Shown: positions 15,220-55,564 of the stretch, piece by piece | How the letters are laid out: every line of letters starts with the position of its first letter | Position numbering within the stretch: position 1 is the first letter of the stretch | Source of the DNA: Octopus sinensis | Taxonomy: Eukaryota | Length of the DNA stretch: 64,000 nt | Direction: 5' to 3' | Assembly (NCBI RefSeq): GCF_006345805.1 | Contig: NC_043013.1 | Location: 2,356,001 to 2,420,000 of the forward strand | Notes under the pieces: generated by a model | What the model saw: only the letters and a program-made list of their open reading frames with translations | Databases searched by the model: none | What the model was told of the DNA's origin: nothing | Position numbers and translations under genes: made by a program

Positions 15220-15897
15220 TGGAGTTAAATGCAGGTTTTATTCAAATCTTTTTACTTCCAACATATGTTTCGAAGAAAACATTGGTTTTAATCCAGAAGG
15301 CATAAAATAATGTAAAACAATGCAATCTTCTCATTAGAGAAAGAAACCAAACACATCAATAAGCCATTTTAACAGAATGTGATGACTGTGTATATGATGA
15401 AGGGAATACCAGCAAGTTTTTTTTTTTTTAACTGTAAATAGATATATTGTCAAAGGTAGTTTTTAGAAAGAGGAGGAGAAAGAAAGAAATCAGCAGAAAA
15501 CTAATAGTGGAAAGATAAAGAGCGATAGGTGAATAGGAATAAAGCTTAAAGTCTTGGAAGTAGATATATTTAGTAGAAGGGAAATGCAAGAAGACAGTCA
15601 AAGGTCGAATTTTATAGACTGGTAGAAATCACTTATAGGAACTAAAGGTATGTTTCTGCTAATGTTTGCAATGATAAACGTGTTCTATAAACATGTCTAC
15701 TAGAGGATTCTCTGAGTATAGGATGAAATACATTTCATCGATACAAAGCAGACAAAAAGATTTACTTTTATCATACAGAAATGATATAGATAGAACATTT
15801 CATTCCAAATCAAATTCCTTCTGGAATAATGTCAAGGTTTTCTTCGAAACATATATCAGAAGTAAAACGATTTGAGTAACACTTACATTTAACTCCA
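15220..15897. mobile_element. Penelope-like fold-back remnant with a degenerate hammerhead
   Basis: Imperfect inverted arms 15220-15300 / 15817-15897. The minus strand at 15255-15342 reads ttct-CTAATGA-gaaga...tcttc-GAAA-catatg-TT-ggaa. Confidence 0.65.
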
Positions 15898-49502: not shown

Positions 49503-49505
<3 letters not shown>

Positions 49506-50185
49506 CTAAGCAATTAAGGGTTTAGCAACGAATTGCCTTACCGCACACCGAATTTAGAAATAGCAGTCAAAGAGATTATAGCTATTTCTTCTACGAAGAA
49601 TTAGATAATTAGATAATAAGAATTAGATAATTCTACCTTACCCAGACTTCTACCTTACCCAGACTGGTGACACAAGCTTTCATTCATACTTTGAATTTGG
49701 TGATACTAGCTGTGGCTTCTAGCTCGCTCTGATACTGAATTGAGTTGGTGCCTTCTAGTATCTCAAAATTCAATATTCAATCATTCATGATTGTTTGTAT
49801 CCTGCGCTGATGAGAGAAGTCTGGGTAAGGTAGAATTATCTAATTCTTATGCTTTCCTAAGACTTGATCTCGAAACGTACGTCCGTAGGTGACTTAAAAC
49901 TGTATGATAGATTGCCGTTAATTTATTCTCTCTTACCTGTTTGTGTTTGCCTTTCAAATGCTGTGTCTTTACTGTGATCTCCCTTTTAGTAGAAGAAATA
50001 GCTATAATCTCTTTGACTGCTATTTCTAAATTCGGTGTGCGGTAAGGCAATTCGTTGCTAAACCCTTAATTGCTTAGTATTACTTAAATTTTCCTCGAAT
50101 GAGGCTTTTACATGCCGAAGACTACTTGGTGTAATTGATAATTATTCCAAATTAATTAATTTCACCCTTCATTGTTATTCATAAC
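49503..50185 (+). mobile_element. Penelope-like terminal-repeat remnant with an inverted 5' partial copy, inserted in (TA)n
   Basis: Perfect 92-bp inverted repeat 49503-49594 / 49989-50080 and a 36-bp inverted repeat 49616-49651 / 49815-49850. Internal hammerhead. No ORF, so the PLE assignment rests on architecture. Confidence 0.75.
49801..49889 (+). ncRNA. Type-I hammerhead ribozyme, structurally complete; predicted cleavage after GUC (C49883)
   Basis: Stem I cctgcg/cgtagg; core CTGATGA; stem II gaga-agtct...agact-tga-tctc; GAAA; palindromic stem III cgtacg; TC. Confidence 0.85.
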
Positions 50186-50286
50186 TATATATATATATAT
50201 CGATGTATGTATATCGATAGCCAGTGAACATACAGCGTAGAAAGAATCCATATATAAATGGATAAAAAATTTATTAGACAGAAAAT

Positions 50287-50330
50287 GCCTGTGACTTCGA
50301 AGTTTCGTTAGCAATGACTCATCAGAATCT
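50287..50330 (-). ncRNA. Hammerhead core lacking stem I (probably inactive)
   Basis: Minus strand: gatt-CTGATGA-gtca.ttgc.taac-GAAA-cttcgaag-TC-acagg. The flanks do not pair. Confidence 0.6.
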
Positions 50331-50360
50331 TTGACGACCTGGAAAATCACATTCACTCTT

Positions 50361-50424
<64 letters not shown>

Positions 50425-50615
50425 CGTGTGTATGTGTATATATGTATATATATATATATGTATAAGTATATATATATAAGCATATATATATAAGCATATA
50501 TATATAAGCATATATATAAGTATATAATTTATATATAATATATAACTTTATTTTAAGCAGCAGAAAATTCAACAAAATCTGTTCTCGTTGCCGTTCATCA
50601 GACAGTCTGATGAAA

Positions 50616-50653
50616 CTGTCTGATGAACGGCAACGAGAAACTCAGAGTAACAG
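50616..50653 (+). ncRNA. Minimal type-I hammerhead (GUA site) in the right arm of fold-back 50546-50686
   Basis: ctgt-CTGATGA-a.cg.GCAA.cg.a-GAAA-ctcagag-TA-acag. The first stem II pair is an A-A mismatch. Confidence 0.7.
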
Positions 50654-50785
50654 ATTTTGTTGAATTTTCTGCTGCTTAAAATAAAGCATATTACTCTACG
50701 ACTGGTATTTGAGTACTCTTTTTTCCACTTGTTTCACATTTATGTGTTTACTCCGGTATATATATATATATATATATACTATATA

Positions 50786-50820
<35 letters not shown>

Positions 50821-51093
50821 GTGTATATATATGTATATATATATATGTATATATATATATGTATATATATATATATGTATATACATATATATATATATAT
50901 ATATATAAAGAGGGGGAGAGAGAGATACATACCCGCACACACACATATAGAGAGAGAGAGGTGTACAAAAAAGTAGGTGTGCAGTAAATATCACATCAAC
51001 GTTATAATATTTAATTCATTAAAATTATTAGCACATTAAACTAGTCAGCCTCATTTTTGCTATTTAATGATAATGATGAATATATAACTTATA

Positions 51094-51314
51094 GAGTGAT
51101 GCCTCGACTATCGCGGGTGTTACGTTCCAAAACCCCACCCGCGATAGGTGAAAATCAGCGAAGTGGAAACAGTACTGTGGTGTAGTTTTTTTTTCCTGTT
51201 ATTTATATAATTTGTATTTTTATTTCATTATAAATGCAGTACACCACGGAAGAATCGGCGTAAAGCTTAAATAATAAGCCGCGATGTGAGCCGCGATATA
51301 GCCGGGGATTACTG
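51094..51314. mobile_element. pogo/Tigger-like MITE
   Basis: TA|gagtgatgcctcgactatcgcgg ... ccgcgatatagccggggattactg|TA imperfect TIRs. Confidence 0.7.
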
Positions 51315-51613
51315 TACTAATACTTTTATCGTAACTTAAAATAAAATGAGTATTTTCTTTTTTCATAAATGTATACCTACTTTTGCGCCAAACTATGTGC
51401 GTGTGTGTGTGTGTATAAACACAATTGCAGCGTGGAAAATATTTGTAAACCATTCAAGAACACACAAAAACCGTTAGTTTCACTTCAACATTTAATTTTC
51501 ATTTGTGCCAAAATATTTTTGTCGCTTTGAAACTGCGACCAGTTTCACTGACAAGACTTGGTGCTATACACGCAGACGCAGACGCACGCACGCACACGCA
51601 CGCACGCACACGC

Positions 51614-51647
<34 letters not shown>

Positions 51648-52404
51648 GAAATAATTAAGATTTAGTTAAATTAGATACTTAAGTTGGGGCATCAAGTCAG
51701 TCAGGTATGGTCCGCACACCTTGAAGTTAGGTGATGAAAAGCAAATAAGTAACAAAAATGTCCAGGTATCGGTGTATTACGACCGTCTGATGCGGCTTCA
51801 TTTAATTAATTGATCAATGAAAACACTATATGTGAGATGTGCTGAAACAATTGTCGTGATTAATGATAAATTTTCGTATATTCCATCTTCCGTCTTTCAT
51901 TTGCCGTGTGTGTGTGGTAACTATAATAATACATCGTAATAATAATAATAATATATATTCTCCGATTTAAAGCGACATTTATATATAAACAAATTGCCTG
52001 GAAAATGATGAGCTAACCCTAGCCAGAATCTAACCCACACATCAACACTTACACCGCTACATGCGGATCCGATTGGACCAAATGCTCACCCATCAATTTC
52101 AGGCAAATTTTACATATATATACTTAAACTGTCTAATACTACATAAAGTAATTATAAACACACCAGAATATATATATTATTGATATATAATTATAGATGT
52201 TATTGTACAAATAAGTTTCTATAATTGCTTTCTCTTACAAAGTCTTCTGGTTTGTTGATAAATATTATACACACATATATATACACACATATATACATAC
52301 ACACACACATACATACATACAACAACACACACACACACATATATATAATATATATAATATATATATATATATATATACACACACATACATTCACTGCTGC
52401 TTTT

Positions 52405-52435
<31 letters not shown>

Positions 52436-52575
52436 CGCGCGCGTTTGTGGGCGTGCTAACAATACTAAACCTGTTGTTAGAACTCAATATGCACACGCTT
52501 TAGAGAAAAGCATTTTGTGAGTATAGAGTGCAGTATTAATCACTGTATGACAAGGGAACATGAATCAATTTCAAT

Positions 52576-52722
52576 GGCTTAAAGCTGTTTCTACTATAAA
52601 AAGGAGTACACTCAGAACTGAGTGCACTATTTTTAATGGCTCTCAGGAGATTGACTATAAGACGTAGCACAAGCACTCAGCTCTGAGCACACTGCATCTT
52701 ATAACAGAAACAGCTGTTAGCT
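52576..52722 (+). mobile_element. Penelope-like fold-back with a degenerate hammerhead (related fold-back at 54872-55028)
   Basis: ggct-CTCAGGA-...tataaga...tcttata..-GAAA-cagctg-TT-agct. Inverted partial copy ggcttaaagctgtttc at the left. Confidence 0.55.
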
Positions 52723-52820
52723 AATTATGATGATTAAAGTAATTCTTGTTAACTTGTCAATCAGTTACACACGTGCACACACATGCGTACATATATAAGA
52801 GGTAGAGTACTGACATAGAT

Positions 52821-52853
<33 letters not shown>

Positions 52854-54231
52854 ATATTATATATATAATATATATATATATTATACATATCTACAAACCA
52901 ATAGATATTTCAAGCTGAAAATATACCTCTAAATTAGGATTCTGCTATTTTGATTTGCAAGTGGAACAGTGAAAGTATTCAATACTTTCCTGAAATCGAT
53001 TTTATACAGTCATCTCTAAATTCCAATGAGGGGTGGGGTCCTTAGTCAGAAGTCAGCACCTCCTCCGTGGATGAATTCAGTTCAACACACACACACACAC
53101 ACACACACAACAGAACAATAATAGGTCAAAGTAGTGGGAGTCACTAAATTGACTAAAGGCTCAAAGGTGGTACCCCAGCATGGTCGCAGTCAAATGAATC
53201 AAACCAATAAAAGAATAAAAACGTAAAAGAGCCGTGTATGGGTGCAGACAGTGATCAATGCCTCAAGTGAAACCCTGCTGGTGTGTGTGTGTGCGTATCC
53301 ATGGTGGCTTCTGCACAGTTTATGTATGCATATATTGCATGAATTAGTGTCTAAAAGTACATATACTGGTTTTAAATTTTGGCACAAGGCCACCAATTTT
53401 GAGTGCTGGTACTTATTTTATCAACCCTGAAAGGATGAAAGGCAAAGTCATCCCCAGCAGAATTTGAACTCAGAATGTAAGGACAGATGAAATGCCCAGC
53501 GTGCTAATGAATCTGCCAGCTTGCAGCCTTTATGATTCTGTATATTGATATCAACTGGTGTGGCGGTTTGCATGCCTTTCTTTCATTAATGTATAAGTAA
53601 GAGGGTAAAACCCCCTTTGGTTGTGAATGACCATAAGATTGCATCTAGAAAGTTTCCCTCCGGAGGCACAAATCTAGGTACGGTTGTTTATGGAAGACCA
53701 GCAGTTGCCCATGCATACCACCCTCGCCTCTCTCTCCATGCTACTAAAGGAAAAGTCTGATACAGTTTGGCACCAGTGATGTCGCAACTTATTTCTACAG
53801 CTGAGTGAACTGGAGCAACATGAAATAAAGTGTCTTGCTCAAGAACACAACACCACAGCCTGGTCTGACAATCAGACTCACTACCTCATGATTGAGCCCT
53901 ATGCTCTTACCACTGAGCCAGGTGCCTTCACACTGTACAAGTGTCAGACTGAAATATGTAATGGGCTCTACACATATAAAACCTAAAATGGTTAAGTGTC
54001 CCATACAATGGCTAACTGAGATTATTTGGGCAATTAGTTGGTTAAGAAATTTCACCTATGAATGCTTAAAAATCTAAAATTTTATAAAAGTTTATTCATA
54101 TCTGTTTATAAACAAACAACAAATATATGAGACTCAAACCTGTACTCATACTTACAAATACATTGTTTATATTCATTCTCCCTTATAGTGTCACATTCTC
54201 TCCTTATACATACATCTAAATGTAAATCATA

Positions 54232-54339
54232 TATATAAGAATTTTTTGCGTAAGATAAAAAAACCAAGGCTGTATAGATATTATGCTCTAATATACAGCC
54301 TTGGTTTTTTTATCTTATTACGCAAAAAATTCTTATATA
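54232..54339. repeat. Hairpin with ~50-bp arms
   Basis: tataagaattttttgcgtaagataaaaaaaccaaggctgtata / tatacagccttggtttttttatcttattacgcaaaaaattcttata. Confidence 0.9.
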
Positions 54340-54678
54340 CACACGCTGACATAGAACCAACGTTGAACCCTTTATTCGCAATATTACCAAATCTGGAACT
54401 TAACTATGGTCTGGCTATAGAACTTATTCAGCATTACCTGACACCTTTGGGTCCCAATGACACCATTGTCTCTTGTAAATCATATATATCTATATATATA
54501 TAATCAAAATAAGCAACAAGAACATCTTCGGTAATTTGGTATGATCGTTTCACACTACATCATTTTATTGTAAGTATTACAACAGTTTTAAAATGTTGAG
54601 CAATCATCAGACATTTATAGAGGTTTTATATATATATATATATATATGTGTGTATATATATGTGTATATATATATATG

Positions 54679-54716
<38 letters not shown>

Positions 54717-55464
54717 TTACATTTAGATGTATATATATTTACATTTAGATATATATTAAGCATTGTGAGACTGATAACCTGGTGTAGAACCTGGTTATAA
54801 CTTAGTGTAGGACTCAATATATGTATGCCTCTGAATGAAGCATATGTATGAGCCATAAGTACAGAGCCATAATAAGAAAATGAGAGGAGAAAGGAATAAA
54901 TGATTATCTTATCAACTTCATTGGCTTACAGCTAACATGTTTCAGCTATGAGGCCACTGTATCTTATAGAAACAGCTGTAAGCTAATGAAGTTCATAAGA
55001 TAATTCTTTTGTCAACTCATTTTCTTATACACGCACACACAAGCATAGAAGATAACAAGACGCAGTTCTTTTCACACTGATGTCCTCATATACAAAACAA
55101 CATACACACTCCATTACATACATAGAAATGTTCACATACAGATTTACATACAAAAATACACATACACATACATACACACACACACTCACACAAACATAGA
55201 AACTTATACATATGATCTACAAAAATATATATACAAATAAGGTAATGCACACATGTAGCTAACTAAAAATATATACATGCAGATACATGTATACATATAT
55301 TTAAATGTGCATATAAACATATAGACATACAAGCACACACACACACACACACACACGTATGCTTAAGCACCAAAACCTACCCAGAGTAAAGCATACATAT
55401 GCACATGCATGCACCAATGAACACAAACAAGAAATATAATATGAGCAAATGTCTAAAGGGACAA

Positions 55465-55564
55465 NNNNNNNNNNNNNNNNNNNNNNNNNNNNNNNNNNNN
55501 NNNNNNNNNNNNNNNNNNNNNNNNNNNNNNNNNNNNNNNNNNNNNNNNNNNNNNNNNNNNNNNN
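55465..55564. other. Assembly gap (100 N, placeholder size)
   Basis: Run of exactly 100 N. True distance and orientation across it are unknown. Confidence 0.99.

What the first reader, a model, noticed from the sequence alone, without database searches (positions are those of the whole stretch)
49503..55028. Dense cluster of distinct hammerhead-bearing fold-back elements landing in (TA)n tracts
Within 5.5 kb there are at least 8 full or partial hammerhead-like motifs with seven different, mostly palindromic stem III sequences: cgtacg (49876), cttcgaag (50295, -), ctcagag (50641), aatatt (51512, -), caattg (51848), cagctg (52711 and 54972) and cgatca (54542, -). Others lie at 15262 (catatg), 17.9 kb and 59809. 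Most abut microsatellites and have an inverted partial copy. This implies several independent microsatellite-targeting PLE-like families. Family-specific stem III palindromes could act as self-recognition codes for dimeric cleavage (inference).
Basis: partly seen in the sequence, partly recalled or inferred. Interest (0 to 1): 0.7.

Follow-up and report, generated by a model that had tools for sequence, protein, structure and literature searches.

The report
Pile-up of Penelope hammerhead tails
This 5.5-kb stretch is a real pile-up of cut-off ends from about eight families of jumping genes (three shown to be Penelope-like, the rest likely so) that sit in TA repeats and carry a known kind of RNA motif predicted to cut itself in pairs; the palindromes are shared between families, so they are not a family code alone, but one family with about 9,400 copies has a swapped core base pair.

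Summary
The cluster is real and unusually dense: 6 GAAA–C…G palindrome–UH motifs, against at most 4 in 200 random tiles. Only 2 of the 8 window copies (A, C) are intact. 'aatatt' is ATAT, 'cgatca' is decayed CGATCG, and the caattg motif is a chimera of two families. Each motif except B belongs to a repeat family, most with hundreds to thousands of candidate places. C and H are 3' tails of Hydra-type Penelope-like elements, D of a Neptune/Nematis-type element, and A is a 586-nt non-coding tandem retrozyme. (TA)n targeting, inverted 5' copies and palindromic dimer-type stem III are all published for this class. The palindromes are under RNA-level selection (self-complementary centres, G·U variants, compensatory swaps), but several families share one, so they are no family code alone; in a dimer stem I is swapped too. 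The unusual part is family D: 9,649 pattern hits (control 259) with a G3·C8 core, known as a partly active lab mutant and not found as a natural variant in my four searches. The scan already reported the G3·C8 family elsewhere in this genome, and the shared-palindrome result in other genomes.

The parts
49662..50185 (+). Family A: 5'-truncated unit of a 586-nt non-coding tandem repeat (retrozyme-like); intact type I hammerhead (core 49807-49813, GAAA 49872, CGTACG 49876-49881, predicted cut after 49883)
   Evidence: 1,941 candidates, best copies 96-98%; 21 of 29 loci with a same-strand second copy; longest Met-ORF 34 aa
49503..49651 (-). Inverted partial copy of family A abutting (TA)n
   Evidence: arms 49503-49606 / 49977-50080, 95%; 49616-49651 / 49815-49850, 100%
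50293..50325 (-). Motif B: exact core and CTTCGAAG but stems I and II only 2 bp; likely an old decayed copy, family not assigned
   Evidence: DNA search finds only itself; pattern 152 hits, control 1; downstream flank not matched by family profile
50612..50756 (+). Family C: 3' tail of a Hydra-type Penelope-like element with intact hammerhead (core 50620, CTCAGAG 50641-50647; A.A at the base of a 2-bp stem II)
   Evidence: 335 candidates; RWK, DKT, CxCX5C in the linked ORF
50546..50611 (-). Inverted copy of C's hammerhead region (lacks the stem III segment)
51417..51565 (-). Family D: decayed 3' tail; family core is G3.C8-swapped (GUGAACA), insert ATAT; parent has a C-terminal GIY-YIG ORF end about 1.2-1.8 kb upstream
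   Evidence: 9,649 vs 259; 18 of 24 loci GTGAACA, none C3/G8
51647..51831 (-). Antisense 3' fragment of a CGGCCG-hammerhead family; its decayed GAAA-palindrome-UA lies at 51778-51789
   Evidence: (2,591 candidates)
51834..51905 (+). 3' half of a CAATTG-hammerhead family (GAAA 51844, CAATTG 51848-51853); no core here
   Evidence: 97% to L201, which has the full motif; 3 of 100 random tiles hold it
52621..52770 (+). Family F: old copy, core decayed (CTCAGGA 52642-52648; consensus CTGAGGA), CAGCTG 52711-52716
   Evidence: (624 candidates, 75-88%)
52577..52625 (-). Inverted partial copy of F
   Evidence: 78% to 52673-52721
54498..54620 (-). Family H: 3' tail of a Hydra-type element; core exact (54610-54604), palindrome decayed from CGATCG; (TA)n on both sides
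   Evidence: 1,949 candidates; L153 ORF remnant with CxCX5C, colinear with L157 and L167
54872..55028 (+). Motif G: imperfect fold-back of an F-like 3' half (GAAA 54969, CAGCTG 54973-54978), no core
   Evidence: 70% self-inverted

Best explanation
The region is a pile-up of 5'-truncated 3' ends of about eight repeat families, three of them linked to protein-coding Penelope-like elements and one a non-coding tandem repeat, each carrying a type I hammerhead motif with a palindromic stem III that likely cleaves only when two copies pair. Shown: the families, the ORF links for C, H and D, the tandem unit for A, fixed 3' ends next to (TA)n, inverted upstream copies, and selection for self-complementarity. 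Inferred from published Penelope biology: the element's endonuclease nicks AT-rich DNA, reverse transcription starts just downstream of the hammerhead and usually stops early, and a second priming event leaves the inverted arm; TA-rich stretches therefore collect many families. Inferred from topology: in a double hammerhead both stem III and stem I form between the two copies, so partner fit is set by both helices; the usual partner is the neighbouring repeat in the same transcript, so self-complementarity is selected while the actual letters drift by compensatory and G.U steps. Family D keeps the 3-8 tertiary pair reversed (G3.C8) and is predicted to retain reduced activity.
For: ORF links: L328 inverted copy - ORF - hammerhead; L329 hammerhead - ORF; Hydra motifs; H; D: L336/L345, L350, L356, L365. 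Relatives of the C ORF: 944 proteins at E<=1e-20, best hit carries GIY-YIG PF01541. TA adjacency A 23/29, C 28/29, H 14/24, CGGCCG family 17/24, D 6/24, F 7/29 against 7.3%; unbiased sample 15/20 within 400 nt against 27%. Palindromy without requiring it: 12 of 22 even-length clusters have a Watson-Crick palindromic centre (17 with G.U; 1/16 expected), 7 of 9 odd-length ones pair up to the middle base. Monomer hairpins +1.6 to +5.6 kcal/mol against dimer helices -5 to -19. Compensatory pairs in homologous flanks: CGTACG/CGGCCG, CTGCAG/CTCGAG, CAATTG/CGATTG/CGATCG. Published model: PMC4209133, PMC8557442, PMC11167929, PMC7229834.
Against: No cleavage, expression or circle was tested. No ORF link was found for B, F/G or the two E families. 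Pfam found no RT or EN family in my ORF pieces (0 of 9; 0 of 4 at a useful E-value); clade calls rest on motifs, not a tree. The compensatory variants L397 and L398 are single copies; an exact-flank pattern found only L397 itself (1 CGGCCG, 0 single-change CGGACG). Clusters are not fully independent lineages and 23 of the 31 are represented by one or two copies. TA content explains the density only partly (rho 0.26). In Anolis the hammerhead was dispensable for insertion in vitro and needed protein to cut (PMC11167929).
Confidence: 0.85

Rival explanations
1. Stem III palindromes, with stem I, are a selected self-recognition code that keeps co-expressed families from forming mixed dimers.
For: Among the 8 window families the computed homodimer is always the most stable (totals -28 to -41 kcal/mol; best heterodimer -16); 20,417 C-NNNN-G motifs (control 1,524) span many palindromes.
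Against: Orthogonality follows automatically from different palindromes. Families share palindromes; A and its relative at L370 share CGTACG by descent (66-68% identity over about 200 nt); two CAATTG families are nearly cross-compatible (-26 against -30/-31); only 16 C-NNNN-G palindromes exist. No test of selection for divergence was run.
Confidence: 0.12
2. Long palindromes let the hammerheads work as monomers with a short hairpin stem III; the symmetry is only a by-product of stem pairing.
For: Invertebrate retrozyme hammerheads with a 2-bp stem and tetraloop cleave efficiently as monomers (PMC7229834 passages); inserts of 8-10 nt allow 3-4 bp.
Against: A loop need not be self-complementary, yet centres are; computed monomer hairpins are all unfavourable.
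Confidence: 0.2
3. The hammerhead-like motifs are protein-binding or vestigial folds carried by the elements, not cutting ribozymes (most relevant for D, and for C, F, H with a mismatch at the base of stem II).
For: Hammerhead mutants did not affect insertion in vitro (PMC11167929); low activity of PLE hammerheads (PMC4209133); D's core is a partial-rescue type.
Against: The 3-8 pair is kept by a double change in D, as catalysis would require; cores are conserved across diverged families.
Confidence: 0.15
4. Chance motifs or DNA-level palindromes in AT-rich repeats.
For: AT-only half motifs do arise by chance (126-156 in shuffles against 253); B has no flank support.
Against: Strict hits 23 against 0-3 per Mb; pattern counts far above reversed controls; G.U variants are only symmetric as RNA.
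Confidence: 0.02

Closest known systems
Minimal and small-palindromic-helix-III hammerheads in pLTRs of metazoan Penelope-like elements (Cervera and De la Pena 2014, PMC4209133; parts 1-2 of 4 read). Lunse et al. 2017 (PMC5785218) is cited there-after in PMC6765202; not held, not read
   Same: Type I topology, palindromic positions 15.2-16.2 and loop 3, many consensus families per genome, mostly single truncated copies, opposite-strand pairs 100-700 bp apart, dimer model
   Different: Inserts up to 8-10 nt; several families with A.A or U.U at the base of stem II; a natural G3.C8 core where that paper reports U3-A8
Hydra-clade Penelope-like elements, including Hydra-1_Obim (Craig et al. 2021, PMC8557442; passages, section 11, supplement rows)
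   Same: C: RWK, DKT, CxCX5C, C-terminal EN, hammerhead, (TA)n insertion, inverted 5'-truncated copy; H: CxCX5C remnant
   Different: C spans about 3.5-3.8 kb in L328 against 'generally <3 kb'; identity with the published octopus family not tested
Animal non-LTR retrozymes (PMC7229834, passages; bioRxiv 10.64898/2026.07.22.740005, parts 1-2 of 5)
   Same: Family A: head-to-tail non-coding units with a type I hammerhead in each unit
   Different: 586-nt unit (longer than 170-400 nt, inside the 51-972 range of the preprint); inserts Penelope-style in (TA)n with inverted arms; RNA circles untested
Poseidon_Ac of Anolis carolinensis (PMC11167929; parts 1-2 of 4)
   Same: AT-rich targets, two 3' end points giving an optional tail, hammerhead near the 3' end; C3G/G8C double mutant partly active
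   Different: There G3.C8 is an engineered rescue; here it is the natural state of family D

Membership tests
Type I hammerhead ribozyme | CUGANGA, GAAA and UH core with stems I-III | tested here: met
   Window copies A and C; family copies of F, H, B-type, CAATTG and CGGCCG families. Not met by the window copies of D, E, F, G
Type I hammerhead ribozyme | Canonical C3-G8 pair (family D) | tested here: not met
   G3.C8 in 18 of 24 similarity-selected loci exactly, 0 with C3/G8; pairing kept, letters swapped
Type I hammerhead ribozyme | Self-cleavage after position 17 | not testable with these tools
   Needs in vitro assay or raw RNA reads; one search listed no RNA holder on record
Dimer-type metazoan hammerhead | Short palindromic helix III unstable as monomer | tested here: met
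EN+ Penelope-like element | RT plus C-terminal GIY-YIG ORF colinear with the hammerhead repeat (C) | tested here: met
   L327-L329; homologue P0001 has PF01541
EN+ Penelope-like element | ORF colinear with hammerhead (D, H) | tested here: inconclusive
   Endonuclease-end remnants colinear in 4 D loci and 1 H locus with 2 supporting; RT core not recovered
EN+ Penelope-like element | ORF colinear with hammerhead (B, E, F/G) | tested here: inconclusive
   No ORF within 1.5 kb flanks of the fetched loci; longer copies not sought
EN+ Penelope-like element | 5' truncation, inverted upstream copy, optional tail, (TA)n bias | tested here: met
   Inverted copy in A 7/29, C 22/29, H 4/24, D 7/24, F 6/29, CGGCCG 10/24; TA adjacency as; D tail of about 60 nt
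Hydra clade | RWK, DKT, CxCX5C motifs (C) | tested here: met
   against section 11 of PMC8557442
Hydra clade | Placement in an RT tree with reference clades | not tested
   Reference sequences not fetched
Neptune/Nematis clades (D) | CX2-5CxxC linker before GIY-YIG | tested here: met
   L365 translation; the clade cannot be chosen without RT
Non-LTR retrozyme (A) | Tandem non-coding units each with a type I hammerhead | tested here: met
Non-LTR retrozyme (A) | Expression as linear and circular monomer RNA | not testable with these tools

The most novel reading that the evidence does not exclude
Dozens of co-resident Penelope-like and retrozyme families use stem III plus the swapped stem I as a two-part, selected partner code, forming a natural library of mutually orthogonal dimer ribozymes that includes an active G3.C8-core member in about 9,400 copies.
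Probability: 0.1. Interest if true: 0.7.

Novelty: new variant of a known kind. Interest (0 to 1): 0.35.

Why it matters
The class and its features are known, so the cluster itself is ordinary for this genome, only denser. Two points are of use to ribozyme and transposon specialists. A high-copy natural G3.C8 core would complete the natural covariation set for the 3-8 tertiary pair and argues that catalysis, not just a fold, is being kept. The many palindromes with compensatory and G.U intermediates make the old double-hammerhead model and the unclear role of hammerheads in Penelope elements directly testable with matched natural pairs.

Tried and rejected
Rfam at E<=1: the 150 listed of 291 matches were microsatellite-driven miRNA/sRNA models, no hammerhead family among them; 141 weaker rows not seen. 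Pfam on ORF pieces blank; PDB sequence search blank; protein atlas not available. Single-strand folds did not recover the full hammerhead fold except stems I and II of A, and one of the seven inputs (L345) was the wrong stretch; expected for this motif, not used as evidence. B: DNA search and flank profile gave no family. ORFs near H in L330/L331 and near D in L184 were set aside as separate insertions. An early idea that the sequence upstream of D's hammerhead is an intron end was not tested. Search for more CGGCCG relatives of L397 found only itself. Lunse et al. 2017 not held. Neighbouring sequence outside the window was not obtained.
Full report
Setting. The window is G000:C17:2356001-2420000 of a 2.72-Gb animal genome rich in (TA)n and (CA)n. 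It is likely an octopus; this is inferred from repeat types I recall and from earlier scan notes, and was not tested.

Observation. All eight motifs are present. A strict type I descriptor (exact CUGANGA, stem II >=2 bp, GAAA, perfect palindrome, UH, stem I >=3 bp) gives 2 hits in the region (A, C) against a mean of 0.007 in 300 local dinucleotide shuffles, and 3 in the window against 0.1 in 30 shuffles. In a systematic 1-Mb sample (100 tiles of 10 kb) it gives 23 hits against 0-3 in 5 shuffles, which extrapolates to roughly 60,000 intact motifs in the genome. The region has 6 GAAA-C..G-palindrome-TH half motifs; 0 of 200 tiles of equal size exceed 4. Its TA-tract content is matched by 14 of 200 tiles, and motif count rises with TA content (rho 0.26, p 2e-4; 0.69 against 0.18 per tile in top and bottom quartiles). 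So it is a true hot spot, partly explained by target density.

Motif by motif. A: intact; 1,941 candidates, 40 scored, best copies 96-98%; head-to-tail units of about 586 nt with a hammerhead in each; no Met-ORF above 34 aa. B: exact core, 2-bp stems; DNA search finds only itself and its flank does not match the family profile, but the pattern core-gap-GAAA-CTTCGAAG-T has 152 hits against 1 control; likely an old copy. C: intact, a fold-back; 335 candidates. D: decayed here; 2,548 candidates. E: a chimera of an antisense CGGCCG-family fragment and the 3' half of a CAATTG family. F and G: one old CAGCTG family or close relatives, consensus core intact, window copies decayed or partial. H: consensus CGATCG, 1,949 candidates. 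Candidate numbers are first-look counts, not copy numbers.

Parents. Long C copies carry a broken ORF with RT motifs and a C-terminal endonuclease: L328 reads inverted copy, ORF, about 1 kb of 3' sequence, hammerhead; L329 reads inverted copy, hammerhead, ORF. It has RWK, DKT and CxCX5C, the Hydra-clade marks in section 11 of PMC8557442, whose supplement lists an octopus Hydra family inserting in (TA)n. 944 relatives at E<=1e-20; the top one has GIY-YIG. Pfam did not recognise my pieces. H: L153 has a CxCX5C endonuclease remnant 1.1 kb upstream, colinear with L157 and L167. D: four loci show an endonuclease end (CX3CxxC linker, YIGET) 1.2-1.8 kb upstream through a microsatellite-rich 3' region. 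No ORF link for B, E, F/G in the fetched flanks.

Insertion pattern. (TA)4 lies within 70 nt of the 3' end in A 23/29, C 28/29, H 14/24, CGGCCG family 17/24, D 6/24 and F 7/29 loci, against 7.3% of random positions; D is undercounted because many copies carry a tail of about 60 nt. In the unbiased sample 15 of 20 hammerheads have (TA)4 within 400 nt downstream, against 27%. Inverted upstream copies: 7/29, 22/29, 4/24, 10/24, 7/24, 6/29. Loci were the best matches to the window copies, so young copies are favoured. All of this matches the published anatomy of Penelope-like insertions (PMC8557442 passages; PMC11167929 parts 1-2). An inverted arm is antisense and cannot be a dimer partner; if transcribed it would likely mask the ribozyme (inference).

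Palindromes. With no palindrome required, 111 hits fell in 34 clusters. Of 31 clusters with inserts >=6 nt, 12 of 22 even-length ones have a Watson-Crick palindromic centre (17 with G.U; 1/16 expected) and 7 of 9 odd-length ones pair up to the middle base; some of the rest are likely chance hits or CpG decay. Genome-wide, core-gap(9-39)-GAAA-C-NNNN-G-TH has 20,417 hits against 1,524 control; in the 30 fetched loci 20 are perfect and 25 with G.U, and by eye about 67 and 85 of the 100 listed rows. A monomer loop needs no such symmetry, and computed monomer hairpins are +1.6 to +5.6 kcal/mol against -5 to -19 for the two-copy helix without initiation cost. Homologous flanks carry different palindromes: CGTACG/CGGCCG (alignment score 140, shuffle maximum 43), CTGCAG/CTCGAG (180 against 34), and by eye CAATTG/CGATTG/CGATCG, where the middle form is symmetric only through G.U. 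Two of these variants are single copies, and a follow-up pattern found no second CGGCCG copy. This supports the published double-hammerhead model (PMC4209133 parts 1-2; PMC7229834 and PMC6765202 passages).

Code idea. CGTACG, CAGCTG, CAATTG, CGATCG and CATATG each recur in sequence-distinct families, at least once by descent (A and L372, 66-68% over about 200 nt). In a double hammerhead stem I is also formed between the two copies (follows from topology). Adding stem I separates most families that share a palindrome (A/L370 -25 against -41 and -31; H/L380 -15 against -29) but not two CAATTG families (-26 against -30) (rough energies, one copy per family). Homodimer preference is thus expected, but nothing here shows selection for it. 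A search for hammerhead + heterodimer + palindromic + retrotranspos gave 3 unrelated papers by listing.

Family D core. Stem I (7 bp), a bulged base, a G-C-based stem II, GAAA-ATAT-UU are all in place, but positions 3 and 8 read G and C. The pattern has 9,649 hits against 259 control; 18 of 24 loci chosen by similarity to the decayed window copy read GTGAACA exactly and none C3/G8. C3G/G8C is a partial rescue in the lab (PMC11167929; PMC8495972 and PMC3884650 passages); natural U3-A8 is known (PMC3088659 passages; PMC4209133). Searches showed no natural G3.C8 case, but Lunse et al. 2017 and the supplements of PMC4209133 and the bioRxiv preprint were not seen and may hold one.

Earlier scan notes, read after my own analysis: the G3.C8 family and this kind of cluster were reported elsewhere in this genome, and the shared-palindrome result in other genomes. 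One note pointed me to the Hydra clade, which I then checked; before it I had leaned to Nematis for C.

Verdict. Real, mostly known biology; the proposed code is not supported as stated; the G3.C8 family and the compensatory palindrome series are modest new variants. Interest 0.35.

Noticed in passing
window 51092-51318: Short element with matching ends, resembling a Tigger/pogo-type MITE (recalled); 5 loci share 51092-51228.
   Followed up: no
window 54232-54339: 108-nt fold-back (86% self-inverted) between TA tracts with no hammerhead motif seen; next to it 54340-54475 resembles a repeat seen downstream of D in L343.
   Followed up: no
window 53149-53231, 53391-53548, 53603-53936: Three very common short repeats (56-121 of the fetched loci), resembling octopus SINE ends (recalled).
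   Followed up: no
families C, F, H and L388, L280: Consensus has a mismatch (A.A or U.U) at the base of stem II instead of G10.1-C11.1; C has only 2 bp plus a GCAA loop.
   Followed up: partly
L123-L146 (CGGCCG family): Core reads CTGAGGA in 7 and CCGAGGA in 4 of 24 matches; a U4C subfamily may exist.
   Followed up: partly
L276, L279, L195, L240:8748: U3-A8 core hammerheads with palindromic inserts in the fetched loci.
   Followed up: no
L367-L374, L384-L385, L395-L396: A second tandem family (about 558-nt unit, CGTACG) distantly related to A.
   Followed up: partly
L337-L366, just upstream of D's stem I: Branch-point-like and pyrimidine-AG sequence followed by ATG; many copies start near it. 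It could be an intron end as in Drosophila Penelope.
   Followed up: no
window 11010(-), 59785(+): Further hammerheads: a CCTAAGG-type copy with one mismatch and a minimal one with a CG insert.
   Followed up: partly
window 55465-55564: Assembly gap of 100 N just right of the cluster.
   Followed up: no
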